Both the position numbers and the translations under genes were made by a program. A DNA stretch of 64,000 nt from a bacterium (GTDB lineage Bacteria; UBA10199; DSSB01), in the NCBI GenBank assembly GCA_046346845.1, contig JAXMHH010000002.1:426747-490746 (forward strand), written 5' to 3'. Positions 3,983-27,377 of this stretch are shown here, one piece after another. Positions within the stretch are counted from its first letter, which is position 1, and each line of letters opens with the position of its first letter. The notes below the pieces were generated by a model. The model saw only the letters and a program-made list of their open reading frames with translations. It did no database searches and was not told the DNA's origin.

Positions 3983-6900
3983 ATGACGCTGCGCGACCTG
4001 CTGCGCGGGGATTCCTCCCTGCCTGTCTTCCGTTCCTCCCCCTTGCCCGGACTGCCTCGCGAGTCGGCCCCGCCCCAGGCCTTTTCCTCCGCCGCCGTGC
4101 TGGCCCGCCTCCTCGAGGGAGGGGCCGAGCCCGGCAACCTCAGCCAAAGACTGGAAGTTCAAGGGGGCGAGCTGCGCGCCGCCTGGAACGGTCTCGCCGC
4201 AAGCCAGCGCCAGGCGATCGAGCGTCGCTTCAGCCGTCCTGTTTTGGAGGAGTTGTTTTCCCTTTCGCGGGGTTGCGATGCCGAGGGACTGGCCGAGGCC
4301 CTGCTGAGCATCGGGGCGGTCCAAGAGCGACAGGGGCGGATCGAATCGGCGGCGGAGCTCTACCAGGCGGTGCTGAGCCTGCGCGGATCGGGTGCGGGGT
4401 TAAATCCCGTTTGCGACCGGGCCGAGCGGCGTCTCAACGCGGTCTTGGGTCGGGGCGACGCCCTGCCGCGCGCGGAATTCCTGTTGCGCCGCCTGGCCAG
4501 CGAGGCCACCGAACCGACCGCCCTGCTGGGCATGGCGGCCGCGGGCTTCGCCTTCCGGTTGACGCGTTTGGCGACGCTCTCCCGCTTGGCGGCGAGTCCC
4601 ACGGCGAATTTTTTGACGCGCGGACTCGGCGCTCGAGCGGTGGCCTCGCTGGCGGGATTTGGGGTCGAGGCGACCGTCTTTCCCTATGCAGGACGCCTGG
4701 CCAACGCGGCCCTGGGTCGGCATCAGGATTGGAGCGCCCGGGCCCAGTTCCGCGACTTGGCAGGCAGCTTCCTAACCCTGGGCGGTTTGAGGGTCATGGG
4801 CTGGGCCGCGGGCGCCGGCTTCAACCGGCTCCATGGTATCGACCCGCTGACCGGCCAGGCGACACGCTTGGCGGGATTCAGCGCGATTTCCCAACGCCTC
4901 GTGCCCCAAGTGGGCATGTTCGGCGGCATCCTGCTCGGCCATCATTTGGAAGAACGCTTCGGGTTGCGGGAGCACCACGACAGCGCCACCACGATGGTGG
5001 ATTCCCTCGCGATGCTGCTCCAGTTCAACGTCGCCGGCGCCCTGCAGCGCCATGCCTTCGGCGCGCGGGTCCACGCCTGGGAACAAAGCCTGGACCTGCA
5101 GGCGGAGGGTTTGGCCCGCGGCATTTCCGGTCGTGGGACCCCGGAGGCCCGGCGTCCCTTGTTCAACTTAACGGAATCTTTGGGCGGCCTCCAACCCGCG
5201 CTGGCGACGGCTGGCGTGGCGGGAGAACCCGCCGGTCGGCCCTCGCGCGGCCCCCTCGAGGGGCCGCAGCTCGTCTTCATGGAGGGATTGGGCGAGGGCG
5301 GCGGCGCAAATTCGGGCGGAACCGAATCGGCACCGGCGCGGGAATCCCTGCCCAGCCGCGGCGAGCCCCGCCGCATTGACCCCAATGAGACCTTGGCGGT
5401 GTTGCCAATGGGTGCCCTGACCCCGCATGGCAACGAGCGGAGCACCCACGCGCGGGCGGTCGGCGACCTGCGCTGGCTGGCCGAGGTCGGCGTGATGAAC
5501 GGTCACCTCGAGTATCGCGGCGACGGCGTCTATGCGGACAAGGCGAGCGGCGAGGTTTTGGACTTCGACCAGATCGAGTCCCGCTACGGTGAGGCGATCC
5601 GCAGCGGCAGCGGGTTTCGCGAATTGACCAGCAGCCTGCCGATCGAGACGCCCTGGGGCGGCCAGATTCCGGCGGGGCTGCGCGGCGAGGACGGCAAGAT
5701 CGAGGCCCGGCTCCTCGAGGTGATGGGGCTCACTCCCAGCCGCGTCAAACAACTGAGCTTCAATCAGAGCACCACGCTGATCACCAAGGCCGACCAGTTC
5801 GCCCTGCAGGGGCTCTACGCCCTGTTCCGCTCCGGCGTTCGTTGGGGCGCGCGGCTCGATGAGATCGTCGGCCGCGACCCGGAGGGCCTGGGCATCAGCG
5901 CCGCTCCCGGCCTGGGCGGGATGAACCACTTGGTCCATCTGTTCCTGGCGTCCGCGCGGCGCAAAAGCCCGGACAGCACCCGCACGGACCCGGCGACCAT
6001 GCCGATGTGGCTGCCCAGCACCTTGGCGGATTCCATGCAGGGCGTCCTCGTCGCAGTCCTGGGCCCCAAGTACGAGAACACCAGCATCGGTCCCAACCCC
6101 GTCGACGTGGGCGCCTGCGCGACCGGCTACAAGGCCTTCGCCCAGGCCGCCGACATGTTCCGCCCCCAATGGCCGGGCGGCGGCAACGTGGAGCTCGCGA
6201 TCTTCGGGTCCTCGGAAGCGCCGCATGGCCAGCCCCACGCCCGCGTCTCCGCCACCGGCTTCAACGCGATGGGCGCGATGGAGACCCTGGAGCGGCTCGG
6301 CAAACGCCTCGGCCTGCAGCCCAGCGAATTCCGCCAGGCGATGGACCACCTCGAGCGGCACTACGCCCCGATGACCGAGGACGTTTACGGCTTCTGGCCC
6401 TCCGAGGGCGCTGGCGCCGGCGGCCTGATGCGACTGGCGCGGGCCATCGAGCTGGGCCTGCCGGTTTCTTCCACGGTGGCGGGTTATGCGATGCGCGGCG
6501 ACCAGGGCGGCAAAAAGAATCCCGCCGACATCGGTTACGGTGGCCGGAATGCCCTGCGCACCGCCCTGCGCATGGCCGAAGCTTGGCAGGGGATCAACCC
6601 GGCCCACTTGGATTACTTCAGCGGACATCTCACCGGGACCCCGACCAACAACGCGGCCGAGTCCGCGCTCTTCGCCGAGGTCCTGCCGGCCGAGACGCGG
6701 ATGCGGCTCTCCGCCTACAAGGCCTTTTTGGGTCACGGACTGGGCGCGGCGGGGACGATGGAGATCGCCCTGCTGCAGGCCTCGCTGGAAAGACAGTTGG
6801 GTCCCGGCGCCTTCAACGTCGAGGGCCGCACCTTGGCCCAGGCCTTTCTCGACTTGCACCCGCGGGTGCAGGTCAGCGCCGACTTGGTCCGCGACATCCG

Positions 6901-9337: not shown

Positions 9338-9417
9338 ACCCAGTCTTTTCCAAGGCTTAATTTGGAATGGGATTTTGGCAACTTCTCGCTTAGCCGGGCG
9401 AGAATCGCCAAAACACC

Positions 9418-11484
9418 ATGGCGGGCACCTTTTTCCCAAAAACCGCGCTGCGCGGGCCGCAACGGCTCGAGTGGGAGGCGCTGCAAGGCGAATCCGACCC
9501 GCAGCTCTACGCCTCGGGGCTGCTGGGCTTCGCTCAACGCCAGGGACAAATGGGGCAGCTCGAGCTGGCGGCCGAGGTCCTTCGGCACTTGGAAGCGACG
9601 GGTCCCGAGCCGCTGCGCGGTCGCGTGCGGCGGGAACTGGAGGCCATGCTAGGGCAGGGGACCTTCGGCCCCCGGGCGGAATTTTTGCTGCGGAATCTGG
9701 CGCAACAGGCCAGCGAGCCCAGCTCCCTTCTGGCCATGGGTGCGGCGGGGACCGTCTTTCGTATGACGCGGCTCTTGACGCTTTCTCGCCTTTGCCAAGC
9801 GGATTCCCTGGGGTGGATGACGTGCCTGCTGGGGGCCGGTCGCCTGGCGACGCTGGCCGGCTTCGCGGCCGAGGCCCCGGCCTTCGTCCTGGCGGGCCGT
9901 TTGGGGGGCGAGGTCCTGGGGCGTCGCCAGGACTGGAGTTTCCGGGCCCTGGCCGGCGAATTTGCCTCCAGCTACCTGCTCTTGGGGGCCCTCAAATTAG
10001 GAACCGGGTTCGGCGCCGGAGTCGCCCGCGCCTTGCCGGATGGGCCCTGGCGCGGGCTGCTGCGCCAGGGCGGGACCTTGGCCGGCATCGCGCTGGGGCG
10101 TCGCTTGGAGGCGTCCTGGGGCCCGCATCCCCAGCCCGGCGGCGCCACCGAGCTGACCGACTCCCTGGCCCTGCTCCTGCAATTCCAGGTGGCCGCGGGA
10201 TTGGGTCGAGGGCTGTTCGGAAACAAGCTCCACGCCTGGGAACGCGCCTTCGACCTTCAGGCCGCGGCCCTGAACCCCGCTGGGGGCTGGTCCGCCGGTC
10301 CCCAAGCGATCCCCGCCGGGGCTGGGGGGGAAGGCCAGGGATTGCCGGGACGAAGGGTCGAGCCGAGATTCCTCGGGCACTTCATGCAGATGTCGGGAGA
10401 GGGGGGAAGTGGCGGGGCCGGAAAAAAGGCCGGCGCGGTGGACTCTCCGGGATGGAGCGGCCGCCTGGGCTCGGTCCTGGCAAAACTGCCGGAGTGGTTC
10501 CGAGGGAATCGATCCCCGCCGGTCCCGGCGGACGAACCTGCCGAAACCGCCCCTTACCGTCGTCAGCCCTATCATTTTGCCACGCCGGCCGCGGCGCGGG
10601 CCCATGGCGAGGGGCTGTGGCAGCTGGTGCTGGACCCCAACCAAGCCCCGGAGCTGCGCCTGACGGGTTTGGCGGAGGTCGAGGCTTATTACGAAGGACT
10701 GCGGCGCGCGGCTTGGGATTATCAGGGGAATCTCCGCCAGGGACTGCAGCGGCTCCAAGGTTTGATCCGCGACCCCGGGGTTCGCTACCTCGAACCCGAG
10801 GGTTGGCCGGAAATCCTGTTGCAGCGGGAGATCCCCCTGCCGAAATCGGTGGCGGATTTTTATCGCAGCGACCTGCTGATCCGCGGCCGAGCCGCCGAGC
10901 TCTTCGCCGACCTGCATCGCCGGCCTCCGGTTTCGACACCCCTCCTCAAAAACGGCGTGGTCTTCCTCGAATCGGCCGTTCGCCAGCCGGGACTTTCCAC
11001 CAAGTTTCGCACCTATTGGCGGCCGGATGTCTGGTCCCGCGCCTATTTCGCCGCCGAGGCCCAGGCCCGGCAGGCCCTGTTTCGAGCCTACGCCCGATTG
11101 TTGCCGCAGCTGCCAGTGGGGAGCGTGGAGGCGGTGCAGGGATTTCGACTGCTCACCGAGGAGCCGCTCCTGGCGATGGCGCGCGGCGAGGGGCCCTTGC
11201 CGGATTACCTCAGCGACCCGGCTTGGGTCGTGGAGCTGCTCAGCGCCCAAGCGGAATTGCTGCGCCTGCTTCCGCTCCGCCACCCCGAGGTGCAGCGGGC
11301 GGATCGCATTTTGAGCCCCTTGCTGCAGAGCCTGGGAGAGCGGGCCCAGGAGGGTGATCCGGCGGCGATCGAGGCCCTGGGGCGTTTTGCGGTCTCGGAC
11401 GGCAGCGCGGTGGCCCTCTTGCAGGATTTGGCGGAGCGGGGCAACCCCATCGCCCGAAACCTGCTTGCGAAGGGGCGACCCTGA
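9418..11484 (+). CDS. Array member 2: module plus unknown helical cargo
   Basis: ESDPQLYASGLLGFAQRQ...GPRAEFLLRNLAQQASEPSSLLAMG...DSLALLLQF; the C-terminal region is HEAT-like and resembles member 4. Confidence 0.8.
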   Translation: MAGTFFPKTALRGPQRLEWEALQGESDPQLYASGLLGFAQRQGQMGQLELAAEVLRHLEATGPEPLRGRVRRELEAMLGQGTFGPRAEFLLRNLAQQASEPSSLLAMGAAGTVFRMTRLLTLSRLCQADSLGWMTCLLGAGRLATLAGFAAEAPAFVLAGRLGGEVLGRRQDWSFRALAGEFASSYLLLGALKLGTGFGAGVARALPDGPWRGLLRQGGTLAGIALGRRLEASWGPHPQPGGATELTDSLALLLQFQVAAGLGRGLFGNKLHAWERAFDLQAAALNPAGGWSAGPQAIPAGAGGEGQGLPGRRVEPRFLGHFMQMSGEGGSGGAGKKAGAVDSPGWSGRLGSVLAKLPEWFRGNRSPPVPADEPAETAPYRRQPYHFATPAAARAHGEGLWQLVLDPNQAPELRLTGLAEVEAYYEGLRRAAWDYQGNLRQGLQRLQGLIRDPGVRYLEPEGWPEILLQREIPLPKSVADFYRSDLLIRGRAAELFADLHRRPPVSTPLLKNGVVFLESAVRQPGLSTKFRTYWRPDVWSRAYFAAEAQARQALFRAYARLLPQLPVGSVEAVQGFRLLTEEPLLAMARGEGPLPDYLSDPAWVVELLSAQAELLRLLPLRHPEVQRADRILSPLLQSLGERAQEGDPAAIEALGRFAVSDGSAVALLQDLAERGNPIARNLLAKGRP

Positions 11485-11525
11485 AGGCTAGGGAGCGGAT
11501 TATTCGAATAAGATAGGGATCACTC

Positions 11526-14333: not shown

Positions 14334-14390
14334 GACAACTGTCCGAGGAAATCCTCGATAAAGGCAAAATAGTTCAGGGCTCGGGAGAAA

Positions 14391-16445: not shown

Positions 16446-16480
16446 GAAGCGGTTGAAAAGCGGTATTTTTCAACAGTCGG
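16446..16480. mobile_element. MITE-like element, minimal copy (35 bp)
   Basis: ggttgaaaag...tttttcaacag inverted ends with TTAG duplicated at 16442-16445 and 16481-16484. Confidence 0.55.
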
Positions 16481-16501
16481 TTAGCGCCGGCCACGAACCC
16501 A

Positions 16502-17131
16502 TCAATGGCTCGATTGCGGCAAGGCGGGTTTGTCCGGTCCGCGCGGCAGGCCCCCGAAAAACTTCCGCCACATCCAGCGAAAGCCGCGGAAGATCTTGGG
16601 CAAGAACCAGGCGAAGAAGACCAAGAACAACGCTACGATCGCCAGCATCAGGTAGGGGTGCTGGAACATGAACCAGATCGAGAAGAAGACCATCAGGTCT
16701 TCGCCCAGCGACAGGAACCAATTCGAAAAGGGCTCGGGGCTGGTGTTGACCATCGCCCGGAGGCTGGACTTGGTCGCGTGGCTGGAGAAGGCCAGGCTGC
16801 CCCCGACCAAGGTGGCCGCCAGCTTTAATTCCGGCGAGACATTGCCCGCCGCGCCATAGGCGAGCACGGCGCCCGCCGGGATGCGGATGAAGGTTTGGAT
16901 GCTGTCCCAGGCCGTGTCGAAGGCTGGGACTTTGTCGGCGATGAATTCCACCACGTAAAGGACCAGGGCGATGCCGAAGACGGCGGGGTGGCTTAAGGGG
17001 TGCAGGCCCGCGGGCAGATCCAGCCAGCCCAGCCTGCCGAACAGGCCCAGGAATCCGATCGTCGCATAGGCATTCAGGCCGCTCGCCCAAGAGGAACCCA
17101 GCATCAGACTGAGGGTGGAGAGGGTATCCAT
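16502..17131 (-). CDS. DUF4126 family membrane protein
   Basis: WASGLNAYAT, VEFIADKVPAFDTAWDSIQTFIRIPAGA, SPEPFSNWFLSLGED motifs. Confidence 0.85.
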   Translation of the reverse strand: MDTLSTLSLMLGSSWASGLNAYATIGFLGLFGRLGWLDLPAGLHPLSHPAVFGIALVLYVVEFIADKVPAFDTAWDSIQTFIRIPAGAVLAYGAAGNVSPELKLAATLVGGSLAFSSHATKSSLRAMVNTSPEPFSNWFLSLGEDLMVFFSIWFMFQHPYLMLAIVALFLVFFAWFLPKIFRGFRWMWRKFFGGLPRGPDKPALPQSSH

Positions 17132-17132
17132 T

Positions 17133-17645
17133 TTAGAGCCTATCGTACTCTTCCCGGAAGACTTGGTAAATCTCCGGATCGAGGAGCATGACCTCGACGC
17201 GTTCCAGGCTGGGGACTTCCGGGAGCAGGCGGGCGATCTCGCTGAGCAGGATCTCGGCGCAGCGCTGGGGATCGAAATCGGAGACCCCGGTGCCGATGGC
17301 GGGAAAGGCGATCGAACGCAGTTGCAGCTCCGCGGCCCGCAACAGGGAATTTTTCACCGCATCGTAGAGGGATTCGTCGGTGGTGGGCTCGTCGAAGCTC
17401 ATGCTGGCGGCGTGGATGATGTACTGGCACTTCAGGTTGCCGCCGCTGGTGACCGCCGCCTCGCCCCGCCCGATGGAGCCGATTTGGTCGCATTCTTCTT
17501 GGATCTTGGGACCGCCCTTTTTTCGGATGGCGCCGGCGACGCCGGAACCTAGCCAGAGGTCGGTGTTGGCTGCATTGACGATGGCTTGGGCCTCGCTCTC
17601 GGTGATGTCGCCTTGCAGGATATGGATCTTGGCCTTGGCCGACAT
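17133..17645 (-). CDS. Macro domain protein (MacroD/YmdB-like ADP-ribose deacetylase/hydrolase)
   Basis: GDIT..AIVNAAN..LWLGSGVAGAIRKKGG, AFPAIGTG. Confidence 0.9.
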   Translation of the reverse strand: MSAKAKIHILQGDITESEAQAIVNAANTDLWLGSGVAGAIRKKGGPKIQEECDQIGSIGRGEAAVTSGGNLKCQYIIHAASMSFDEPTTDESLYDAVKNSLLRAAELQLRSIAFPAIGTGVSDFDPQRCAEILLSEIARLLPEVPSLERVEVMLLDPEIYQVFREEYDRL

Positions 17646-17969
17646 GACGGTTCATCATAAAAAACAAAGGCCCCGAGCGTCAATCATTCCGATGCCGCGA
17701 TCTGTAAGATATTTTGTGCTATTTTTTCGACCGGCCGAGGTTTTTTTTCTGTTGCAGGGCCCCGGCGCTCTCCGTTACATCTCGACCATCCCAGCGCCAC
17801 CTGGTTTTTTTGAAAACATTGACAACCTCCGCGCCGCGGTCGCGATAAGGCCGTATACGTCAAAATCGGGTAAGGGACGTAGCCATTCCTCCAGCAGGGT
17901 GTTTCCTGTTCGGGGGTGTCTGTTTTCAGCACGCGGTGCTGTGGTTGGGCTTGAGAAAGGACCGTCCCC

Positions 17970-20471
17970 ATGTTTCCTACCCTAGTTGCCTCTGAAGGCG
18001 GGCTTACCCGTGCCTTGCCGGAGGCCCGTGTCGCCATCGCCCCCGCGATTCTAGCTAGAATTTTCGACCGTCGCCTCTTTCCGCAGGCCGATTCCGGCCC
18101 GGTGGAACAGGCCCTGGGCCGCACCGCGGAGCTGCGAGCGGCCCTCGCCGAGCTCCCTGCGGCCCAAAGCCTGGCCTTGCGGGCGAGCTTTGGAGAGGCG
18201 GCGCTCAGCGAATTGCTCAGCCTGGCCGGGGAATCCGATCCGGCCCTGTTGCACGAAGCCCTGCTGAGCTTTGCGGGCCGGCAGGAGACCTCCGGACGGG
18301 TCGAGATTGCCGCCGAGCTCTACCAGAGCGTCGTGGCGAATGCCGGGGCCGGCTCCGCCTTGGGCCGAAGGGCCCAGGCGAGGCTCGATGCCATCCTCGG
18401 CCGGGGCTCGGTTGCCTTGCGCGGCGAATACCTGCTCCGCAACCTCGCGCAGCAGGCCTGCGAGCCCAGCTCCCTGCTGGCGATGGGGGCGGCAGGCACG
18501 ATTTTTCGCGCGACGCGCCTCTTGGCCCTCAGCCGTTTGGCAGCGAGCCCCACGGCCAATTTCCTGACGCGGGGTTTCGGGGCCAGTGCCCTGGCGGGTT
18601 TGGCCGGTTTCGCGGTCGAGGCGCCCGCCTTCACCCTGAGCGGCCGGCTGGCGGCGGAGGCCCTGGGGCGCAGCCAAGATTGGAGCGGGGAGGCCCTGCG
18701 CCGGGACCTGCTCTCCAGCTACCTGGTCCTGGGGGGCTTAAGGGCGGCGGGCTTTGCGGGTGCCGGGCTGTACCGGCGCTTCGGCGGCTCCAGCGAATTC
18801 GCCCGAGGCCTCTTCGCCCAGGGCAGCATGCTGACCGGGATCCTGGGCGCCCATTGGCTCGAGACGCGCTTTGGCCTGCGTCCCGCCACCGACCGCGCCA
18901 ACACCCTGGTTGATTCCCTGGCGACCTTGCTGCAATTCAACGTCGCCGCCCGCTTGAGCCACCAGGCCTTCGGGCCCCGCGTGGCGGCCTGGGAGGCCGC
19001 CTTGGACGCCCAGACCCAGCTGGTTGCCGCAACCAATTTCCGCGCCTCCGGACCCCGGGGTCCGGGCCTCAGCCCGGCCTACGCGGTGGCGGGCGGCCGC
19101 GCCCCCGAGGCGCTCCGCGAACCGGAAGATCCGCTCGGCCGGGGTCTGCAAGTCCTCATGTCCAAGATGCACGACGGTAAGGGCAATCCCGGGCCGACCG
19201 GACGCCGCCTGGCCCCCGGGGAGGTCGGCGAGGGGGGCGTAGATCCCAGTCAGTTAGATAGGCAGATCTCCACCTTGCTACTCTCGGCCGGCGATAACCT
19301 CGAACGCGGCCTGCGCACCTTTATCGACGGCCTCCCCGTGGCCACCGCCGTGGCCCGCCTGGAACGCGGCAATAAAGACATGGGCCGCATCTTCATGGTG
19401 AATCGGAGGTTTCAGGAGCTGTTCGGCTACACCGAGCGAGAAATCGGCGAGCTTCCCCTCATCAAGTTTTACCACCCCCTCAAGAGCGCCTTTGTGCTGT
19501 CGCAGATCTGGAACATCTTCCGTAACGGAATCTTCCGCCCCAGCGATATGGAACTGAGGCATCGGGATGAGGGTTGGGTCAAGGTCCGCGGCAGCGGCGT
19601 GGTGAAAGACCTGGGCGACCACTCCATCGCCTTCGGATTTTTGGAAAACCGCGCCGAGGCCAATGAGGGACGGCAAAGCCAGATCCTGGCCGCCTTCGAA
19701 GAGTCGAAGCGACCCCAAGCGATCCGCACTGCAGCCGACGGACATGTCGAGGTGGGATCGGTCATCGAACTCAGCTCCCTCTTGACCCAAGATAATTCGG
19801 CCTTGCTGCGGCAGATCGTGGACCAGGATGTCCGCATCCGCATCACGAATATGCCTTGGGTCCAGGCCTCCGACGGCTATGCCGAGCCCTTGGCCCGTTT
19901 TTTCAATGTCCAAGACCGGAAATTCTCATTCCCCGTCGGACGGAGGGTGTCGGTGGAGTTCCCACCCTCCGAGTCCAATGGCCGGGCGCGCACGATCATT
20001 CCCTTGGTGAAATTCGATTCTGGATTTCGCGCCATCGGATTCGGAGGGCCCGAGGCCAATCCGTCGGGAAATCCGGCGGGGACGGAGCTGCCCACCGCCC
20101 TCCCCCGGACCTCGCCTTCCCTGGCGGCGCCCGCCTTCGACAAGCCGCCGAGTCCCATTCCTCCGGCGGTCGTCGACGCCACCACCGCCGAGCTCTTAAC
20201 CAGGCTGCAAAGCCAAATGGGGGCCGCGGTCTTGGGCGCCCGCGAGGCCCTTTCGCAGCAGGATGCGGAGGTGACGGTGGCCGGGGAGTTTCCCGCCGCC
20301 TTTTTGAACCAAAACCTCGAGTCGATCCAGGGCGAGCTCCAGGCCATCACCGAAAAGCGGGTGCCCATCACCTTAGGGCGCCAGGTGACGCTGCGCTTTC
20401 ACACCGACCGGGGTCCCCTCACCTTGGTTTTTCGTAAAGTATTACGCAGGTTTGAGCGGGTGGACGGCTAG
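17970..20471 (+). CDS. Array member 5: module plus PAS domain plus alpha/beta units
   Basis: SD gaaagga. Module 18232-19020. PAS at ~19307-19657 (FIDGLPVA...VNRRFQELFGYTEREI...ELRHRDEGWVKV). Confidence 0.82.
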   Translation: MFPTLVASEGGLTRALPEARVAIAPAILARIFDRRLFPQADSGPVEQALGRTAELRAALAELPAAQSLALRASFGEAALSELLSLAGESDPALLHEALLSFAGRQETSGRVEIAAELYQSVVANAGAGSALGRRAQARLDAILGRGSVALRGEYLLRNLAQQACEPSSLLAMGAAGTIFRATRLLALSRLAASPTANFLTRGFGASALAGLAGFAVEAPAFTLSGRLAAEALGRSQDWSGEALRRDLLSSYLVLGGLRAAGFAGAGLYRRFGGSSEFARGLFAQGSMLTGILGAHWLETRFGLRPATDRANTLVDSLATLLQFNVAARLSHQAFGPRVAAWEAALDAQTQLVAATNFRASGPRGPGLSPAYAVAGGRAPEALREPEDPLGRGLQVLMSKMHDGKGNPGPTGRRLAPGEVGEGGVDPSQLDRQISTLLLSAGDNLERGLRTFIDGLPVATAVARLERGNKDMGRIFMVNRRFQELFGYTEREIGELPLIKFYHPLKSAFVLSQIWNIFRNGIFRPSDMELRHRDEGWVKVRGSGVVKDLGDHSIAFGFLENRAEANEGRQSQILAAFEESKRPQAIRTAADGHVEVGSVIELSSLLTQDNSALLRQIVDQDVRIRITNMPWVQASDGYAEPLARFFNVQDRKFSFPVGRRVSVEFPPSESNGRARTIIPLVKFDSGFRAIGFGGPEANPSGNPAGTELPTALPRTSPSLAAPAFDKPPSPIPPAVVDATTAELLTRLQSQMGAAVLGAREALSQQDAEVTVAGEFPAAFLNQNLESIQGELQAITEKRVPITLGRQVTLRFHTDRGPLTLVFRKVLRRFERVDG

Positions 20472-20569
20472 GCCAGCCCCGCCGCGAATCCAGGCAACCA
20501 ATTCTGGAGGGCGACGAGAAGACGGCACCGAAGCTTTAAAAAAATTTCGTAATTTCGAAAAGGTTCCCG

Positions 20570-22375
20570 GTGTCCGACTTGATTCTCGATCGCCTTCGCC
20601 CAGGGTTCCCGCGGGAACCCGCGCCGTCCTTCGCCTTTCAGCCCCGTGAAAGCGCGGGCTGGACCCCTGCGCTCCGCCGCGAGTTGGCTGTCCTGGCCGC
20701 GGAGAGCGACCCGCAGCTCTACGCCGAAGGGCTGCTCAACCTCGCGCAGCGCCTGGAAGCGGGGGAGCACCCCGAGGCCGCGCCGGAGCTTTATCAGGCC
20801 CTGTTGGAATCCCCCGTTCCCGGCATTTCCGCTCGGGCTCGAACCCGACTCGACGCCCTACTGGGGCGCGGAGCCGTCGGTCCGCGCCTGGAATTCCTGC
20901 TGCGCCGCCTGACGCAAGCAGCGACGGAACCCAGCGCCTTGTTCGCGATGGGCGCGGCCGGGGCGGTCTTCCGGATGACGCGTTTATGGGCGCTCTCGCG
21001 GCTGGTCTCCGCGGGCGAGACCGGTCTGATGACGCGGCTTCTGGGCCCGGGCCGGATCGCCAGCCTGGCGGGCTTTGCGGCGGAGGCGCCCGCCTTTACC
21101 CTGGCCAACCGACTGGGCCACGCGGCCCTGGGCCGGTCGCAAGACTGGGGCGGGTCGGCCCTGGCGAGGGAGTTCGCTTCCAGTTTTTTGGTCTTGGGCG
21201 CCTTGAAATTATCCGGTTCCGCCGCGGCTTGGTTGGGGGCCGGGCAGGCGGCGAGCCTGCGGATGGTGCTCCGGCAGGGCGGGATGTTGACTGGGATCCT
21301 GCTGAGCCATCGCCTGGAAGAGCTGGCGGGCCTCCGGCCCAGCCAGCCCGGTGCGACCCGCTTGGCCGATTCCCTGGCGCTCTTGCTGCAATTCCAAATG
21401 GCCGGTCGTCTGGTGGAGGCCGGCCTGGGGCGCCCGGGGAGCGCGGCCGAGGCGCACCTGGAGGCCATGGCATTGACCCCGCGGCCGAGTCTTCCTCCGC
21501 CCCTGGCGCTGTCCCTGGGCGCGGAACCGGCCCTGGCGAGCGCGGCGGGCCCAAGCCGTTCCGGCAGCCCGGCAGCGCCCCGCTTGTCGGCGGGCGTCTT
21601 CGCCATGGCGGCCGGCAAACCCTTGGGCGGGCATGGCGGGAGCACCGCTCGCAAGAGCCCGGGTGAATTGGTCGAGGAACATCTTCAGACGCTGAGCGAG
21701 GTACCGCCCGCCGATGCGGAGGCTGCGCCGCCCGCCATCGAGTTCCGTTTCGAGGGCGTGACCCTCACTCCTTCCGCCGAGCTCCGGCAGAGATTTTTCT
21801 GCGAAACCCTGCAGCGCCTCTTGAGCAAGGGGGAATCCGGATTTCCCTACCCCCTGCGCGGCGAACTCAGCCAGGCGCTGCGTTCCAATGCGGACCTGCG
21901 AGCCTCTCTTCCTGCGCTGGGTGAGGGGACGGAGCGCCGCTGGGTCGCGGACATCGCCGCCAAGGGCCATGAGCTGCGCCACCTGCTCCTCCTGGAATCG
22001 GAAGGAGGCGGTCCGTGGCGGCCCCGGCGGCTTTTGCTCGGGGCGCAGATCCTGCGCTACGACGAGAGCCAGGATCCGGCGGTCTACGACCTGGAATTCG
22101 GTCGCGGCGAGGCCCCGGAGATCCGGGGACGGATCTTTCGCCCCGACCTCCACGAGAGGTGGAACCCCGACGGCTACCTCAGCCGGAGTTTCTCCCCGGT
22201 GGGAGACGGCGACCTGAGGTGGGAACTCTATCCGAAAAGCTCCTACCTCCTCCGGCTTGAAATGGCGGTGGAGCCTCAGCTCCGCCTGCAGGTGTTGGAA
22301 TTGAGCGGGCATCGCCTCTTCTCGTTGGGCCCTTGGGCCCGGGCCGGCAACGGCAAGGGGAGGCAGGGGCCATGA
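20570..22375 (+). CDS. Array member 6: module plus unknown beta-rich cargo
   Basis: GTG start; module 20703-21470; junction GVFAMAAG; stop overlaps the next ATG (ATGA). Confidence 0.8.
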   Translation: MSDLILDRLRPGFPREPAPSFAFQPRESAGWTPALRRELAVLAAESDPQLYAEGLLNLAQRLEAGEHPEAAPELYQALLESPVPGISARARTRLDALLGRGAVGPRLEFLLRRLTQAATEPSALFAMGAAGAVFRMTRLWALSRLVSAGETGLMTRLLGPGRIASLAGFAAEAPAFTLANRLGHAALGRSQDWGGSALAREFASSFLVLGALKLSGSAAAWLGAGQAASLRMVLRQGGMLTGILLSHRLEELAGLRPSQPGATRLADSLALLLQFQMAGRLVEAGLGRPGSAAEAHLEAMALTPRPSLPPPLALSLGAEPALASAAGPSRSGSPAAPRLSAGVFAMAAGKPLGGHGGSTARKSPGELVEEHLQTLSEVPPADAEAAPPAIEFRFEGVTLTPSAELRQRFFCETLQRLLSKGESGFPYPLRGELSQALRSNADLRASLPALGEGTERRWVADIAAKGHELRHLLLLESEGGGPWRPRRLLLGAQILRYDESQDPAVYDLEFGRGEAPEIRGRIFRPDLHERWNPDGYLSRSFSPVGDGDLRWELYPKSSYLLRLEMAVEPQLRLQVLELSGHRLFSLGPWARAGNGKGRQGP

Positions 22376-24786
22376 CCTTTTTTCCCCACCTGCCGTCCCG
22401 ACCCCCCGCGGTACCCAGGGAGGCCTATCCCTCGCTGCCGGACACCGCCCTGCGGCAACTTCCGGAGCCGCTGCGAGGGGAACTCCTCGCCCTGCCGGCG
22501 GAACGGGACCCGGAACTCTACGCCGAGGCCCTCTATCATTTCGCCCAACGGCAGGAGCGGGTGGGCCGCCTCCCCTTGGCGGTGGAGCTCTATCAAGTCC
22601 TGCTCGCCGGGCCGGCCAGCGCCTACCGAAATCGCGCCCAACTCGCCCTCGACGCGATCCTGGGGCGCGGCGCCTTTGGAGCCCGGGCGGAGTTCTTGAT
22701 GCGAAATTTCGCCGAGCAGGCCAGCGACCCCAGCGCCCTGCTCGCGATGGGCGTAGCCGGGGCGGTGTTTCGCATGACGCGCCTGGCGGCGCTCGCGCGC
22801 TTGACCGGCTCGGTTCGGCCGGGACTGATGACGCAGTTCCTCGGGGCGGGCCGGCTCGCCTCGCTGGCGGGCTTTGCGGTGGAGGCACCGACCTTTACCT
22901 TGGTCCACCGTTTTGGCGATGCGGCCTTGGGTCGGTCCCAGGACCGAAGCGGGGAGGACCTGGCTAGGGAGCTGGCCTCGAGCTATTTGACCTTGGGCGG
23001 GCTCCGGCTCGCGGGTGCCGGCGCGGTGTTGCTGGCAGAGGGGCAGGCGGTTCCCCTGCGGCATCTGCTCCACCAGGGCGGGATGCTCACCGGCATCCTC
23101 CTCGGTCATCGCCTGGAGGAGTGGGCGGGTCTGCGGCCGCGGCAGGCGGGCGCCACGACCTTGGTGGATTCCCTGGCCCTACTGCTCCAATTCCACGTGG
23201 CGGGCCGCCTGAGCCGTGCGGCCTTCGGGCATGACTTCGCCGCCTGGGAGGCGGGGCTCGATCGGCAGGCCGAGCTTATGACACGCCCTCCGCCGGGTTC
23301 CGGCCCCCGCCCCATCCCGATTCCGAATCCTGCCCGGCGCTTGGCTTGGGCCAGTGGCGGTGCCGAGGTTCCGGTCCCCGTCGGCCCTACCGTGCTGATG
23401 ATGTCCGGCAGGGGGCGCGACGGCGGAGACGATTGGCGCGCAGGTCTATTTCGGGCCTCCAATTTGCGGCTTCGGATCAGTCCGGCCGATGCCTACCAGC
23501 GGCGGGCGGATAATGCGGCGGACTACGTCAAGCAGGTTCAGGAGCTGACGCCGGGACATGCGGGGGTCATGACCGAGATCCTGATGGGGCTCGACCTGTT
23601 CGGGTCTTGGCTGGAGGGCGGCGATCCCTTTCGCCGGGCCATCGGCTTTCGGCACCACGCCGAGCTGTGGCGGGTCTTGGCGAACAAGTGGACCCATGTT
23701 TCCCTCACGGTCTCCCTGACCGAGGCCTTTCGCGACCAGATCCGGCGCCAAATCCGGCTCCTGGCCCAGGGCTCCAACCAGCGCTTCCTCGCCGCGACCC
23801 TGGAGGGGGCGCCCGAGATCTCCCGCATCTACAGCCATACCCTGGGCGCCTTGGTGGAAGGCTCGCCGCGGGAACGCGAGTTGACCCAAACCCTCTTGGA
23901 TCTGCTGGCCGCCCTGCGCGGCGGGGCCTTGGCCCCCAACCCTTCTGTCCAGCGAGGGCTTTGGCTGGAGGCCTTCCACGCGAGCTTGAATTACGCGGCC
24001 AATGAGCGGCTCGGGTTCGCCCGGGAGGCCCTGCGCGGGATCCAGGGGACTCGGGCCTGGCTCGGCAGCGCCGACCCCGAGCGGCAACTCTTGGGACGCC
24101 GCTACTTCCCGCTGTTTTGGAACCGGCTGGCGGAGCGGGGTCATCCCGAACAAAAAGACCCCTTCCTCTCCGAGGTCCAAGAGGAAGTCGCCTTTCTGCA
24201 GCAGAGCACTTCGCCGCAACGGGTCCCGAAGGAGACCTTGTTGGCCGCCTTGCAGGCCTACCCCCACTACGCGGAATGGGTCTTCAACCTCCTGGGCGAT
24301 CACCCCCTGCAGGGCTACATGCTGCTCAACACCTTCCTTGGCCAGGCCCGCACCCTGCGGCCCTGGATCTCCGGCCACAGCGATGCGGAGGTCCGCGAGA
24401 CTTGCGCGGCTTCTTATTTAAGGGTTCTTTCCCGGTTGAATCGACAGGCAGAAGCGCTTCGCGACTTTCCTAACCTGCCGACCCCCATCGGCAGCGATAT
24501 CGTCGCCGAGGCCTGGGAGGGGATCCCGGTCTTTGAGCAGCGTTGGCAGGGCGCCCCGGGGCCGGATGCCATGATCTCGGCCCTCCGCGACTATCTGCAA
24601 CTGCTCGACCTCTTGCCGCCGGAGGCCCGGTTTGGTCGCGAGCTCAGCGCCGAGTCGCGCTTGAAACCCCTGGTCCGGCTCAGTATGCATCAAAATCCCA
24701 CGCTTCGGCGCCTTGCCGAAGATGCGATGGAAAAGATTCTGACGAAATTCCCCTCGGGACCGACCGAACCCTCGGGAGGCAACTGA
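22372..24786 (+). CDS. Array member 7: module plus helical cargo
   Basis: ATG 22372 overlaps the previous TGA; module 22500-23275; junction GPTVLMMSG. Confidence 0.8.
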   Translation: MTFFPHLPSRPPAVPREAYPSLPDTALRQLPEPLRGELLALPAERDPELYAEALYHFAQRQERVGRLPLAVELYQVLLAGPASAYRNRAQLALDAILGRGAFGARAEFLMRNFAEQASDPSALLAMGVAGAVFRMTRLAALARLTGSVRPGLMTQFLGAGRLASLAGFAVEAPTFTLVHRFGDAALGRSQDRSGEDLARELASSYLTLGGLRLAGAGAVLLAEGQAVPLRHLLHQGGMLTGILLGHRLEEWAGLRPRQAGATTLVDSLALLLQFHVAGRLSRAAFGHDFAAWEAGLDRQAELMTRPPPGSGPRPIPIPNPARRLAWASGGAEVPVPVGPTVLMMSGRGRDGGDDWRAGLFRASNLRLRISPADAYQRRADNAADYVKQVQELTPGHAGVMTEILMGLDLFGSWLEGGDPFRRAIGFRHHAELWRVLANKWTHVSLTVSLTEAFRDQIRRQIRLLAQGSNQRFLAATLEGAPEISRIYSHTLGALVEGSPRERELTQTLLDLLAALRGGALAPNPSVQRGLWLEAFHASLNYAANERLGFAREALRGIQGTRAWLGSADPERQLLGRRYFPLFWNRLAERGHPEQKDPFLSEVQEEVAFLQQSTSPQRVPKETLLAALQAYPHYAEWVFNLLGDHPLQGYMLLNTFLGQARTLRPWISGHSDAEVRETCAASYLRVLSRLNRQAEALRDFPNLPTPIGSDIVAEAWEGIPVFEQRWQGAPGPDAMISALRDYLQLLDLLPPEARFGRELSAESRLKPLVRLSMHQNPTLRRLAEDAMEKILTKFPSGPTEPSGGN

Positions 24787-24860
24787 GGCGGTTTTTCGAC
24801 GATACCTCGACGATCTCAATGCGTCATTGTGGAGCGGGGGGCCCTCCCAGGAGCCGAGCA

Positions 24861-27377
24861 GTGTCTCTACGTGTCCCCCATTGGAATCGACCTGCCCCCG
24901 AACGGGGGGAACTCCCCGCGACCGCCTCCTGGACCGCCTTGCTGAGAAACTGCCCCGATGCCGGCGCTCGCGCCGAGCTGAACTCCCTCGCTGCGGAAGG
25001 CGACGCTCAGCTCTTGGGGGAGGGCCTGCTGAATTTTGCCCAGCGGCAGGAACGCGACGGTCGTTTGGAACTGGCGATGGAGGCCTACCAGGCCGTCCAG
25101 ACCCTGCCGGTGGAAGCGCTGCGTCGCCGCGCCCAACAAGGCTTGGATGCCATCCAGGGCCGGGGCGACTTCGGTCCCCGCGCCGAGTTCTTGCTGCGCA
25201 ACCTCGCCCAACAGGCCAGCGAGCCGAGCGCCCTCCTGGCCATGGGCGTGGCTGGGACTGCCTTTCGCGTGACTCGCCTGGCGACACTTTCTTGGCTCGC
25301 CGGCGCCGGTGAGGCAGGCCTGGCGACACGGCTCTTGGGCGCGGGCCGAATCGCTACTTTGGCGGGCTTTGCGGTGGAGGCCCCCGCCTTTAGCTTGGCC
25401 GCTCGCCTGGGCAACGAGGCCCTGGGCCGACCGCAGGATTGGGGCGCCCGCGCCCTGGGCCGAGACCTCCTCTCCAGCTATTTCGTCCTGGGCGGCCTGA
25501 AGCTGGCGGGTGGCGCGGCGGGTTCTTTGGGCGCCGGGCGGCCTCGGCTGTTTCAGCATTTAATACACCAGGGCGGGATGCTCACCGGCATCCTCCTCGG
25601 TCATCGCCTGGAGGAGTGGGCGGGTCTGCGGCCGCGGCAGGCGGGCGCCACGACCTTGGTGGATTCCCTGGCCCTGCTGCTCCAATTCCATGTGGCGGGT
25701 CGCCTCAGTCGTGCCGCGGTGGGTCCTGGCCTCGGGGCCTGGGAGGCCAGCCTCGAGCATCGGGCCGCAAACCTGGCCTTGGGCCGAGGCCGTTCCAGTT
25801 TTCCGCAATTTCCCGGGCCGCCAACGCCTTCCTATGCCATGGCCTCCGCAATATCGGTGGAGGGTCCGAGGGGCGGGACGGAGGCGGGGCCGCGGATCCC
25901 CGACCGCCTCTATTCGGTTCGTCTCACCGGGGAAGCGGACGCTTCTTCCCCGACGACGGAATCCGCGGCGAACCTCCCGGAGGTTCGCGCCTTACCGGGA
26001 GGCCGGACCCGACCCGTGGATCGGGAGCGGCTGACTTCCATTCGCCTGATCGAGGCCCAAGGCGTGGCCTGGGTCATCGACATCGACACCGCTGAAAGAA
26101 ATCGGCAGTTGGAGGTTTGGGTGGGGGACCACCTCCTTCCGCCCGGCGGTTCCCTGCGAGTGCGGGAGGGTGAGGTGATTCGGATGGGGGACCGGAGCTA
26201 CCGGTTCCGCGAGATGGGCCCCGAGGCGGCGGAGGATTCGGGCAACCGCCTTCGGCAAGTCGTCGCCTTGCGCCGCCACCTGCACCACAGCTACGGCTCC
26301 GAAGGCGCGGCCCACTATGACCTGCAGCTGGGGGATTTTTTGGAGGGGATGGCGGCAGGAGAAGAAACGGTCTTTGCCACGGGTCCCTTGGGGACCGCGC
26401 GCCTGCGGGTTTTGAGTCGAGGTGCGGGCGAGGTCGGGGAGCGTTTCGACCTCGAGCTGCGCGACGACAGGAATTCCTTTCCCTTGAGCCTCGAGCTCGC
26501 CCCGGACCGGTTTCTCTATCATCATCCCCCGCGTCCCCAGCCCCGGCAGGCCCTTTTGCCGATGTTCGCCGATTGGGTGAACACCCATGCCATGATCCGC
26601 GCCGCTCAGCTGGAGGTTCGCGGCATCAGTCCCGAATTTCACGAGCTGCTCGAGCAAGGCTTGATCAACGGTAGCTACGATCGCCTGGAGGCCAGGGAGG
26701 GGCGGGTCGACCTGATCACCCAACCCCGTTCCATGCTGATCCCGCCGGAGTTCGGCCCTCAGCACCGCGCGGCCGCGGAGCGGGCCTTCCAGGCCTGGGC
26801 GCAGCGTCGCCTGGGGCGCACGATTCCGACCCTGGTGGAATTGGAGGAAGGGGTCCCGCCGCCGGAGTTCAATCACCTCGGCGTCGAGCCTTCCATGCAG
26901 GCGATCCTCGACCGCTTGGTCGACACGCGCAGCCGCTTTTTGGAGATCGGCTTCGGGGAGCGCACCGAGACCCTGGAGGCGGTGGAGCGGCGCGGTGGGG
27001 TCGCCTGGGGCCTGGAATTGGATCGCGTCTACCCGCCGGGCGCCGACCGAGCCCAGTTGCAGGCGGAGCCGGTGGATGTCCTGTTCGTCAACGGCTCGCC
27101 CTTCTTGTTCTATGCCCAACACCAGGTCGCCCTGCCGGCGGCCCTCGACATCCTCCGCCAATTTCCGCGCGCGGAGTGGTTGGTGCTGCAGGCTTACAAT
27201 CCGCGCACCCCCTTCGAGATCCTGCGCCATGCCGAGGAGCTCAATCGGATGGAGTGGGAGCCGCTCTATTTTCGCAGCCAGGCCGCACCGGACGAGGCAC
27301 CCCTCTTTCCCACCGACTGGTGCCAGAGGCCGGATACCGCCCATGCCGTCCTGATCGCCCGGCGGGTCCGACGTTAG
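24861..27377 (+). CDS. Array member 8: module plus degenerate FHA-like and SAM-methyltransferase-like cargo
   Basis: GTG 24861 with SD aggag (track start 24543 overlaps member 7). FHA-like tail LRVREGEVIRMGDRSYRF; MTase motif I-like RFLEIGFG, then GLELD and DVLFVNGSPF. Confidence 0.75.
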   Translation: MSLRVPHWNRPAPERGELPATASWTALLRNCPDAGARAELNSLAAEGDAQLLGEGLLNFAQRQERDGRLELAMEAYQAVQTLPVEALRRRAQQGLDAIQGRGDFGPRAEFLLRNLAQQASEPSALLAMGVAGTAFRVTRLATLSWLAGAGEAGLATRLLGAGRIATLAGFAVEAPAFSLAARLGNEALGRPQDWGARALGRDLLSSYFVLGGLKLAGGAAGSLGAGRPRLFQHLIHQGGMLTGILLGHRLEEWAGLRPRQAGATTLVDSLALLLQFHVAGRLSRAAVGPGLGAWEASLEHRAANLALGRGRSSFPQFPGPPTPSYAMASAISVEGPRGGTEAGPRIPDRLYSVRLTGEADASSPTTESAANLPEVRALPGGRTRPVDRERLTSIRLIEAQGVAWVIDIDTAERNRQLEVWVGDHLLPPGGSLRVREGEVIRMGDRSYRFREMGPEAAEDSGNRLRQVVALRRHLHHSYGSEGAAHYDLQLGDFLEGMAAGEETVFATGPLGTARLRVLSRGAGEVGERFDLELRDDRNSFPLSLELAPDRFLYHHPPRPQPRQALLPMFADWVNTHAMIRAAQLEVRGISPEFHELLEQGLINGSYDRLEAREGRVDLITQPRSMLIPPEFGPQHRAAAERAFQAWAQRRLGRTIPTLVELEEGVPPPEFNHLGVEPSMQAILDRLVDTRSRFLEIGFGERTETLEAVERRGGVAWGLELDRVYPPGADRAQLQAEPVDVLFVNGSPFLFYAQHQVALPAALDILRQFPRAEWLVLQAYNPRTPFEILRHAEELNRMEWEPLYFRSQAAPDEAPLFPTDWCQRPDTAHAVLIARRVRR

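What the first reader, a model, noticed from the sequence alone, without database searches (positions are those of the whole stretch)
3983..27377. Tandem array of proteins with a conserved N-terminal module and swappable C-terminal cargo
Seen: eight co-oriented ORFs share a ~270-aa module: ESDPxLYxExLLxFAxRQExxGRxExAxELY, LDAILGRGxxGPRAEFLLRNLAQQASEPSxLLAMG, AGFAVEAPxFTL, QDWS, ASSYLxLGGL, QGGMLxGILLGHRLEE, DSLALLLQF, AAWE. The cargos after a Pro/Gly linker mostly differ (tandem KS, PAS, FHA/MTase-like, several unknown). Established: constant carrier plus variable tip is the layout of polymorphic toxin/effector systems (CdiA, Rhs). Inference: the long Gly/Ala-rich hydrophobic helices act as a membrane-insertion, translocation or compartment-targeting tag. 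I recognise no named family for the module, and the cargos look like captured metabolic and signalling domains rather than nucleases. This is the best candidate for an undescribed system.
Basis: partly seen in the sequence, partly recalled or inferred. Interest (0 to 1): 0.92.

Follow-up and report, generated by a model that had tools for sequence, protein, structure and literature searches.

The report
Expanded novel N-terminal domain protein family
An uncultivated wastewater bacterium (candidate phylum UBA10199) puts one previously undescribed ~300-residue helical domain on the front of about 76 different proteins, including its only fatty-acid synthase, which points to an unknown way of placing or assembling proteins inside the cell, not to a toxin system.

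Summary
The eight co-oriented genes share a ~295-aa N-terminal module (30-64% identity). Two more members lie directly upstream, and the 3.3-Mb genome has 76 module-bearing frames (7.5% of the DNA). The module has no Pfam, NCBIfam, PADLOC or PDB-sequence match. AlphaFold2 gives a confident all-helical model (pLDDT 93) with no Foldseek match. It has a TPR-like head and a ~210-aa apolar helical bundle. Only the bundle is shared with a second, distant UBA10199 clade, which has 38-74 copies per genome. A disordered Pro/Gly linker follows, with two conserved short motifs (PxLAxAG; hydrophobic-hydrophobic-Met then a Gly run).

The cargos are cytoplasmic enzymes and signalling proteins, not toxins: the only FAS-I, two ACCs, KS-KS, PFK, sigma-70, kinases and GGDEF. 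They are orthologous and syntenic in relatives. The modules, in contrast, are homogenised within each genome by gene conversion. There are no signal peptides or immunity genes. T6SS, C39 peptidase and BMC shell genes are absent, and VirB4 is sporadic across genomes.

Best reading (about 0.45): an intracellular anchoring or assembly domain on a flexible tether. It is probably membrane-associated through an apolar helical hairpin, but it is not a classical multi-pass anchor. The polymorphic-toxin reading is not supported.

The parts
1..2892 (+). C-terminal 963 aa of array member M-1 (2463-aa frame, G000:C2:422247-429635). It is a single-chain acetyl-CoA carboxylase cargo; its module lies upstream of the window.
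   Evidence: Pfam ACC_central and Carboxyl_trans. The whole frame carries the module at aa 121-425. The cargo also hits CPSase_L_D2 and Biotin_carb.
3983..9337 (+). M1, 1784 aa: module (nt 4199-5143), linker, then two tandem ketosynthase domains.
   Evidence: SD-like AAGGAG lies before ATG 3983.
9418..11484 (+). M2, 688 aa: module (nt 9439-10308) plus unknown cargo distantly related to the M4 cargo.
11526..14333 (+). M3, 935 aa: module (nt 11538-12416) plus unknown cargo. This member was modelled with AlphaFold2.
14391..16445 (+). M4, 684 aa: the most divergent module in the array (nt 14406-15305; 29-36% identity to the others) plus unknown helical cargo.
17970..20471 (+). M5, 833 aa: module (nt 18162-19052) plus PAS-containing cargo.
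20570..22375 (+). M6, 601 aa: module (nt 20639-21502) plus unknown cargo.
22372..24786 (+). M7, about 804 aa from ATG 22372, which overlaps the M6 stop as ATGA. Module (nt 22447-23310) plus unknown cargo.
24819..27377 (+). M8, about 852 aa from ATG 24819. Module (nt 24927-25796) plus unknown cargo.
5195..5305 (+). Example of the junction in a predicted-disordered linker: PALATAG (5195-5215), then VFMEGLGEGGG (5273-5305). The hydrophobic-hydrophobic-Met/Gly-run motif also occurs at 10378-10413, 12453-12485, 15375-15410, 19152-19184, 21599-21631 and 23392-23427. M8 lacks it.
   Evidence: The linker and motif have pLDDT < 50.
23071..23180 (+). Gene-conversion tract: 110 nt identical to 25566-25675 (M7 versus M8, near the 3' end of the module) within DNA that is otherwise 59-73% identical. 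A 46-nt core is shared with M3 at 12185-12230.
25566..25675 (+). Partner copy of the 110-nt identical tract.
38971..39741 (+). Divergent internal copy of the module (aa 328-584) in the 2068-aa protein encoded at 37999-44205.
   Evidence: hmmsearch i-E 9e-4, model positions 45-290. The protein has no Pfam hit.

Best explanation
The module is a lineage-specific, independently folding N-terminal localisation or assembly domain that works inside the producing cell. It has two parts: a soluble TPR-like head, found only in this clade, and a ~210-residue, charge-poor apolar helical bundle, which is the ancient core. A long amphipathic exit helix and a disordered Pro/Gly tether connect it to the C-terminal domain. 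I propose that the bundle attaches each protein to a common hydrophobic platform. The most likely platform is the cytoplasmic face of the cell membrane, reached by inserting its two most apolar helices (H7 and H9) as a hairpin so that head and cargo both stay in the cytoplasm. About 76 enzymes, kinases and transcription factors would then be displayed there on flexible tethers. The conserved linker motifs would be a docking or processing site for a shared partner, for example a protease that releases cargos such as the sigma factor. Shown: the family, its size, the predicted fold, the cargo types, the disordered junction, the concerted evolution, and the absence of secretion hallmarks. Inferred: membrane or platform attachment, topology, and the role of the motif.
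For: There are 76 module-bearing frames in a 100%-complete 3.31-Mb genome, and the module is almost always at the N-terminus. AF2 gives pLDDT 93.4 and pTM 0.84 for a 13-helix model. Cargos are cytoplasmic types: FAS-I, ACC x2, KS-KS, PFK, carbonic anhydrase, PLP enzymes, Ser/Thr kinases, histidine kinases, GGDEF, HTH and sigma-70. Apart from the M1 KS-KS cargo (another family member), the only PF00109 ketosynthase match apart from two thiolases is in the module-tagged FAS-I, so the module must be compatible with housekeeping cytoplasmic chemistry. N-termini show no signal peptide. In H7, H9, H10 and H12 the variable positions are apolar with 6-9% charged residues, against 18-32% in the head helices, and the charged residues are the conserved ones, such as invariant E154. 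The hydrophobic face coincides with the variable face in H7, H11 and H12 but lies opposite it in the head helices and H13. TM-like segments are about 5 times denser in modules than in cargos. Net charge of the inter-helix segments alternates +4.2, +0.3, +0.9, -0.1, +1.6. Some members add a true TM hairpin just after the module, and two kinases have a later TM helix, which is consistent with the module's C-terminus being cytoplasmic. The junction is disordered, and its motifs are position-specific: 35/61 near the module versus 2/61 in a control window. The motif is also present in the distant f18 clade.
Against: The module helices are only marginally hydrophobic. My GES/TopPred-like peaks have a median of 0.92 and a maximum of 1.64, and KD19 maxima are 1.2-1.8. 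FlhA of the same genome gives 1.9-2.3 and 3.08. In the lower-GC f18 clade, H11 and H12 are rich in Gln, His and Asp and cannot be classical TM helices, so a conserved multi-pass topology is unlikely. A permanently anchored sigma-70 factor would be inactive unless it were released. Kinases that already carry a TM helix would not need another anchor. No localisation, proteomic or RNA data exist. The hydropathy scales and thresholds were implemented from memory.
Confidence: 0.45

Rival explanations
1. Soluble docking or oligomerisation domain. The sticky, charge-poor bundles bind each other or a scaffold protein. They would assemble many enzymes and regulators into one large cytoplasmic complex or condensate, much as dockerins gather cellulosomal enzymes, with no membrane involved.
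For: Hydrophobicity is well below that of real TM helices. H11 and H12 are polar in clade f18. The model is a compact, high-confidence bundle. Module sequences are homogenised within a genome, which would keep modules mutually compatible. Lipid-synthesis enzymes that act in sequence (ACC + KS-KS; ACC-like + FAS-I) are adjacent and all tagged. Giant multidomain proteins with internal divergent modules recur beside family genes.
Against: A protein-protein interface should be conserved, but the apolar positions are the variable ones. No scaffold partner was identified. Homogenisation may simply reflect tandem arrangement.
Confidence: 0.2
2. Sensory or regulatory input domain. The bundle senses a ligand or a membrane or redox state, and controls the fused output through the long exit helix, like the MASE, PAS or GAF input modules of signalling proteins.
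For: Many cargos are classical outputs: Ser/Thr kinase x4, HATPase_c x4, GGDEF, HTH, response regulator, FHA and sigma-70. Polar and charged residues are invariant inside apolar helices (E154, K/R195, Q218, H229, D249). H12 and H13 form one continuous 49-residue helix in the second model.
Against: A disordered 30-60-residue Pro/Gly linker separates module and cargo, which is poorly suited to transmitting conformational change. Megasynthases, PFK and many unrelated unknown domains are unusual outputs. 76-130 copies of one sensor would be unprecedented.
Confidence: 0.13
3. One reading: a carrier or translocation domain of a polymorphic effector family. An unknown secretion route would export it, and the bundle would insert into a target or own membrane to deliver the C-terminal cargo.
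For: The layout is constant N-terminus and variable C-terminus with a demarcating motif. The bundle has an apolar hairpin (H7/H9) among more amphipathic helices, recalling colicin or diphtheria-T-type insertion domains. The family is large and shows gene conversion, as PE/PPE does.
Against: The cargos include the only FAS-I, ACCs, PFK and a sigma factor. There are no signal peptides or immunity genes. T6SS is absent from 0/93 genomes, there is one flagellar-type FHIPEP gene, VirB4 is present in 10/93 genomes and missing from the module-rich G034 and G030, and there is no C39 peptidase. The cargos are syntenic orthologues, not swapped tips. Foldseek finds no match to pore-forming or translocation domains.
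Confidence: 0.07

Closest known systems
Mycobacterial PE/PPE proteins
   Same: A helical conserved N-terminal domain followed by a linker and highly diverse C-terminal domains. There are dozens to more than 100 paralogues taking up 7-10% of coding capacity, often in tandem, and they evolve by gene conversion.
   Different: There is no sequence or fold relationship. PE/PPE proteins are ESX (type VII) substrates located at the cell surface. Here the cargos are cytoplasmic housekeeping and signalling enzymes and no secretion signature was found. T7SS itself was not tested.
Polymorphic toxin systems (CdiA, Rhs, MafB)
   Same: A constant N-terminal part, a short demarcating motif, then a variable C-terminal domain.
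   Different: There are no toxin domains, no immunity genes and no matching secretion system. The cargos are vertically inherited orthologues.
Dockerin-bearing cellulosomal enzymes
   Same: One shared module on some 70 different enzymes of one organism, used to assemble them on a common platform through a flexible linker.
   Different: Dockerins are about 70-aa Ca-binding C-terminal modules on secreted enzymes with a known cohesin partner. This is a ~300-aa N-terminal helical domain on cytoplasmic proteins, and no partner is known.
Chlamydial Inc proteins and other hairpin-anchored proteins (reticulon or oleosin type)
   Same: An apolar helical hairpin that would keep both flanking parts on the same side of a membrane. 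The families are large and lineage-specific.
   Different: Inc hairpins are short (40-60 aa), not conserved in sequence, and delivered by a T3SS. Here the hairpin is part of a conserved 210-aa bundle, and only a flagellar-type FHIPEP gene is present.
Membrane-tethered pro-sigma factors (B. subtilis pro-sigma-K / SpoIVFB)
   Same: An N-terminal extension that holds a sigma factor inactive at the membrane until it is cleaved. This parallels the module-tagged sigma-70 plus the conserved linker motif.
   Different: The pro-sigma-K pro-sequence is about 20 aa and specific to one protein. Neither cleavage nor a protease has been shown here. The comparison rests on my own knowledge.
Membrane-integrated sensor modules (MASE1/2, 7TMR-DISM, 5TMR-LYT)
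   Same: An N-terminal helical domain reused in front of kinases, GGDEF and other outputs.
   Different: Those modules are strongly hydrophobic multi-pass domains and have no long disordered linker. This module is only marginally hydrophobic and is also fused to megasynthases and metabolic enzymes.

Membership tests
Polymorphic toxin/effector systems (CdiA, Rhs and similar) | C-terminal toxin domain (nuclease, deaminase, pore-former, ADP-ribosyltransferase) | tested here: not met
   Pfam on 73 cargos gives FAS-I, ACC, PFK, kinases, GGDEF, PAS and MBL, and no toxin family. PADLOC gives nothing.
Polymorphic toxin/effector systems (CdiA, Rhs and similar) | Cognate immunity gene immediately downstream of each toxin gene | tested here: not met
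   Family genes follow each other at -4 to 99 nt. The only gap (16446-17969) holds a Macro-domain gene on the opposite strand.
Polymorphic toxin/effector systems (CdiA, Rhs and similar) | Known N-terminal trafficking domain or signal peptide, plus a matching secretion system | tested here: not met
   The module has no Pfam or NCBIfam hit, and the N-termini lack an n-h-c signal. TssC is in 0/93 genomes, VirB4 is sporadic, there is a single FHIPEP gene, and no C39 peptidase. T1SS, T2SS, T5SS, T7SS and T9SS were not tested.
Polymorphic toxin/effector systems (CdiA, Rhs and similar) | C-terminal tips differ between strains at an otherwise orthologous locus | tested here: not met
   G035 (same genus) has the same cargos in the same order at 44-81% identity. 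G030 (another genus) keeps ACC and KS-KS.
PE/PPE | Homology to the PE (PF00934) or PPE (PF00823) domain | tested here: not met
   No Pfam hit at E <= 0.1. There is no PDB sequence or fold match.
PE/PPE | Dependence on an ESX/type VII secretion system | not tested
Integral multi-pass membrane domain | Several helices with transmembrane-grade hydrophobicity, conserved across homologues | tested here: inconclusive
   Each module has 3-5 marginal segments (GES score 0.6-1.6), against 1.9-2.3 in FlhA. H11 and H12 are polar in clade f18. However, the variable positions are apolar and the charge pattern alternates.
TPR repeat proteins (head subdomain only) | Matches to TPR profiles above the curated cut-off | tested here: inconclusive
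   TPR_12 scores 18.9 bits against a cut-off of 30.1 in M1 only. Designed TPR proteins match at E 0.75-9 over positions 28-64. The model shows helical hairpins.
Bacterial microcompartment cargo (encapsulation tag) | BMC shell proteins encoded in the genome | tested here: not met
   PF00936 is absent from the own genome, and the controls respond. Encapsulins were not tested.

The most novel reading that the evidence does not exclude
The module is an address tag for a cell structure not yet described in these UBA10199 bacteria. That structure would be a specialised membrane domain, internal compartment or giant scaffold that receives about 3% of the proteome, including fatty-acid synthesis, part of glycolysis, and many kinases and transcription factors. 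The conserved junction motif would be the site where a dedicated protease or receptor processes or docks the clients. This would be a bacterial counterpart of organelle targeting by a folded domain plus a processing site.
Probability: 0.2. Interest if true: 0.95.

Novelty: categorically new. Interest (0 to 1): 0.8.

Why it matters
If the reading is right, two clades of an undescribed candidate phylum have evolved a general, reusable address domain. They have attached it to a few percent of their genes, including essential megasynthases. No described bacterial system organises cytoplasmic proteins this way. It would give a concrete handle on subcellular organisation in an uncultivated lineage: a folded tag of about 300 aa and a roughly 10-residue linear motif. 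It would also supply a new protein fold, a possible tool for tethering enzymes, and a clear example of concerted evolution of one domain across dozens of otherwise unrelated genes. Even if the function proves to be simple anchoring, the family accounts for 7.5% of this genome and is annotated everywhere as 'hypothetical protein'.

Tried and rejected
- **Family and defence libraries.** Pfam, NCBIfam and PADLOC on the eight proteins gave nothing on the module.
- **Structure searches.** A PDB sequence search with a 59-sequence profile found only designed TPRs at E about 1. Foldseek gave best E 0.4 and TM <= 0.23 against PDB, and TM <= 0.31 against BFVD; the top hits (cytochrome b561, LapB, mitochondrial-carrier-like proteins) were not significant.
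- **Internal repeat in the bundle.** hhalign of the two halves gave probability about 2%.
- **Junction docking onto the module.** In the AF2 model of module plus junction, the junction is disordered.
- **Conserved Met as an internal start.** No SD-like context was seen by eye in the sequence. This was not pursued.
- **Recurrent small partner gene next to family members.** None was found; only giant proteins and kinases recur.
- **RNA evidence.** No RNA runs hold the locus.
- **Literature.** UBA10199 is called 'undescribed', and no paper mentions the family.
- **Secretion and compartment markers.** T6SS, T3SS, T4SS, C39 peptidase and BMC shell genes were absent or uncorrelated with the module.
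- **Classical four-TM topology.** I first favoured it from charge and variability patterns. I downgraded it after calibrating against FlhA and after seeing the polar helices of clade f18.
Full report
**Observation**

The eight ORFs are present, co-oriented and closely spaced. A profile of the module scores E = 1e-83 to 1e-121 on the eight genes. It scores nothing else in the window except a weak, near full-length match inside the 2068-aa protein at 37999-44205. Likely starts are ATG 3983, ATG 9418, ATG 11526, TTG 14391 or ATG 14403, ATG 17970, GTG 20570, ATG 22372 (which overlaps the M6 stop as ATGA) and ATG 24819. Among the array cargos, only M2 and M4 are detectably related.

**Scale**

The window lies at C2:426747-490746 of a 3.31-Mb genome in 8 contigs, rated 100% complete. 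A search of that genome with the module profile gave 77 matches. My own hmmsearch over stop-to-stop frames found 76 frames, 62 of them with a full-length module, almost always within the first 10-130 residues. Together they make up 83 kaa, or 7.5% of the DNA.

- The array is really ten genes (C2:419829-454120). Window 1-2892 is the tail of a 2463-aa member that carries a single-chain acetyl-CoA carboxylase.
- The module profile finds 1225 cluster representatives among 1.84 billion proteins (600 at E < 1e-30), and the module is N-terminal in all 150 listed.
- Named records come only from MAGs labelled Deltaproteobacteria or UBA10199. They are called 'hypothetical protein' or are named after the cargo.
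- The samples are wastewater and activated-sludge metagenomes.

**Distribution in the phylum**

Among 93 genomes of the phylum:

| Group | Copies per genome |
|---|---|
| Own genus (g1) | 93-132 first-pass candidates |
| Genus g3 | 108-136 candidates |
| Genus g6 | 53 candidates |
| Genera g2 and g7 | about 19-20 matches |
| Sister family (f2, g8) | 6 matches |
| Two genera (g54, g57) of distant family f18 | 38 and 74 confirmed matches |
| Elsewhere | none, or a single weak match |

In f18 only model positions ~90-302 match, and the domain starts 35-75 residues from the N-terminus. The ancient core is therefore the ~210-aa bundle. The TPR-like head is an addition in the f1/f2 clade.

**What the module is**

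No library or search gave a significant hit on the module:

- Pfam, NCBIfam and PADLOC give nothing. TPR models score below their cut-offs on one hairpin.
- The PDB sequence search gives only designed TPRs at E about 1.
- AlphaFold2 with 59 paralogues gives pLDDT 93.4 and pTM 0.84. The model has 13 helices: six short ones (13-100) and long ones of 25-29 residues (103-298).
- Foldseek finds nothing significant in PDB (best E 0.4, TM <= 0.23) or in BFVD.
- The two halves of the bundle are not repeats of each other.

**Physical character of the bundle**

Evidence for an apolar, membrane-like surface:

- In the head helices the variable positions are 18-32% charged, and the hydrophobic face lies opposite the variable face (125-166 degrees). 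That is typical of soluble amphipathic helices.
- In H7, H9, H10 and H12 the variable positions are apolar with only 6-9% charged residues.
- The charged residues are the conserved ones: R117, R120, R126, invariant E154, R163, D/E183, K/R195, E232, R238, D249 and R262.
- In H7, H11 and H12 the hydrophobic and variable faces coincide.
- Net charge of the inter-helix segments alternates +4.2, +0.3, +0.9, -0.1, +1.6.
- TM-like segments are about five times denser in modules than in cargos.

Evidence against a classical multi-pass domain:

- The absolute hydrophobicity is low. Peaks have a median of 0.92 and a maximum of 1.64, and KD19 is 1.2-1.8. FlhA of the same genome gives 1.9-2.3 and 3.08.
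- In the lower-GC f18 homologues, H11 and H12 are rich in Gln, His and Asp.

I therefore reject a classical multi-pass domain. The data fit a compact bundle with an unusually apolar surface and one markedly apolar hairpin (H7/H9). Such a domain could insert as a hairpin, lie on a hydrophobic surface, or self-associate. The hydropathy scales and thresholds were written from memory and are only approximate.

**Junction**

After the module comes a Pro/Ala/Gly-rich linker with two motifs: PxLAxAG, and about 32 residues past the module, hydrophobic-hydrophobic-Met followed by a Gly run.

- Both are position-specific. In own-genome paralogues the counts are 35/61 and 22/61 near the module, against 2/61 and 0/61 in a control window. 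In the representatives they are 64/128 and 34/128, against 2/128 and 1/128.
- The Met/Gly motif also occurs in clade f18, for example WMMMGAGG.
- In an AF2 model of module plus junction, residues 299-350 have pLDDT < 50 and do not dock on the module. The motif therefore behaves as a short linear motif for a partner acting in trans.

**Cargos**

Pfam on 73 cargos, together with the precomputed domains of relatives, gives:

- Lipid synthesis: a fungal/CMN-type FAS-I (4382-aa protein), two ACC-like proteins and KS-KS.
- Other metabolism: PFK, carbonic anhydrase, PLP enzymes, an aminotransferase, an amidase and an MBL hydrolase.
- Signalling and regulation: four Ser/Thr kinases, four HATPase_c proteins, GGDEF with HTH, FHA, PAS, a response regulator, and an amine oxidase fused to sigma-70.
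- Many cargos with no Pfam hit.

About 45 of the 73 cargos have no homologue elsewhere in the genome. About 15 pairs are diverged duplicates within the family.

Apart from the M1 KS-KS cargo (another family member), the only PF00109 ketosynthase match in the genome apart from two thiolases is the one inside the tagged FAS-I. The two other weak hits are thiolases. The cell's fatty-acid synthase therefore carries the module. PFK exists as one untagged copy and one tagged copy.

**Evolution**

A congener (G035) has the same array in the same order, with orthologous cargos at 44-81% identity, one extra member, and two members missing. Another genus (G030) keeps the tagged ACC and KS-KS side by side at 62% and 59% identity.

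The modules tell a different story. They cluster by genome and neighbourhood, not by cargo orthology: the ACC and KS modules are sisters within G030 (support 1.00) and within G035 (0.955), and there is a G035-only array clade (0.887). M7 and M8 share a perfect 110-nt tract inside DNA that is otherwise 59-73% identical. This is concerted evolution by gene conversion. Family genes have GC3 of 0.80-0.82, against 0.72 for other genes.

**Tests of the effector reading**

| Test | Result |
|---|---|
| Signal peptides | None seen at the N-termini |
| Immunity-like genes | None. Neighbours are a Macro-domain gene, pirin, polyprenyl synthetase and a hydrolase. |
| T6SS sheath (TssC) | 0 of 93 genomes |
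| FHIPEP | One copy in nearly every genome, independent of the module; flagellar type |
| VirB4 | 10 of 93 genomes; missing from the module-rich, complete G034 and G030 |
| C39 peptidase | None in the own genome |
| BMC shell protein | None in the own genome |

T1SS, T2SS, T5SS, T7SS, T9SS and encapsulins were not tested.

**Conclusion**

The best-supported reading is an intracellular anchoring or assembly domain on a flexible tether. It is probably associated with the cytoplasmic face of the membrane through the H7/H9 hairpin, and the junction motif would serve a shared partner (confidence about 0.45). The rivals are:

- a soluble docking or oligomerisation domain (0.2);
- a sensory input domain (0.13);
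- an export or translocation carrier (0.07).

The function has not been demonstrated. The domain, its predicted fold and the pattern of its use match nothing I could find in the libraries or the literature.

Noticed in passing
G000:C4:118547-139275 (outside the window): A second ACC-like protein (2471-aa frame) sits directly upstream of the 4382-aa FAS-I, and both carry the module. The ACC-like gene's module is split over two overlapping frames (model positions 8-200 in frame C4:118547-119482, and 197-289 in frame C4:118702-126114). This could be a frameshift, an assembly error or a pseudogene. The same kind of split occurs at C4:306180-310557.
   Followed up: partly
whole genome G000: Lipid synthesis looks type-I only. 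There is a fungal/CMN-type FAS-I and single-chain ACCs, and no FabF/FabB-type ketosynthase; the only other PF00109 hits are two thiolases. This is unusual for a lineage once filed under Deltaproteobacteria.
   Followed up: partly
window 17133-17645 (-): A Macro-domain protein gene on the opposite strand sits in the only gap of the array (16446-17969), where G+C drops to about 0.61.
   Followed up: partly
G000: C1:24586-40239, C1:299793-317531, C2:116395-126810, C2:508195-531271, C5:158107-168993 and others: A family of giant proteins (2000-5900 aa) recurs next to module genes. Some hold weak internal module matches, for example C2:523022-523723. Pfam sees only RelA_SpoT, FHA and TPR in them.
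   Followed up: partly
window 22372-22375: The M6 stop and the M7 start overlap as ATGA, with GGGGAGG upstream. This suggests translational coupling within the array.
   Followed up: no
G000:C1:563098-564222: A 375-aa frame consists of the module alone (aa 94-358) with only 17 residues after it. It is a possible cargo-free member.
   Followed up: no
G000:C6:154288-154896 (-): A VirB4-type T4SS ATPase lies on the lowest-GC contig (0.589). It is absent from congeners, so it is probably part of a mobile element.
   Followed up: partly
family genes genome-wide: Module genes have GC3 of 0.80-0.82, against 0.72 for other long ORFs. This might reflect GC-biased gene conversion or expression level.
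   Followed up: partly
G000: C2:272092-274698, C2:351204-354005, C3:317966-320212, C5:79554-81098; also L118 (G073): In a subset of members the Met/Gly junction motif is replaced by a strongly hydrophobic two-helix hairpin with a short loop, directly after the module.
   Followed up: partly
window 27449-31243: Downstream of the array are ordinary genes: pirin, polyprenyl synthetase (- strand) and an alpha/beta hydrolase.
   Followed up: yes
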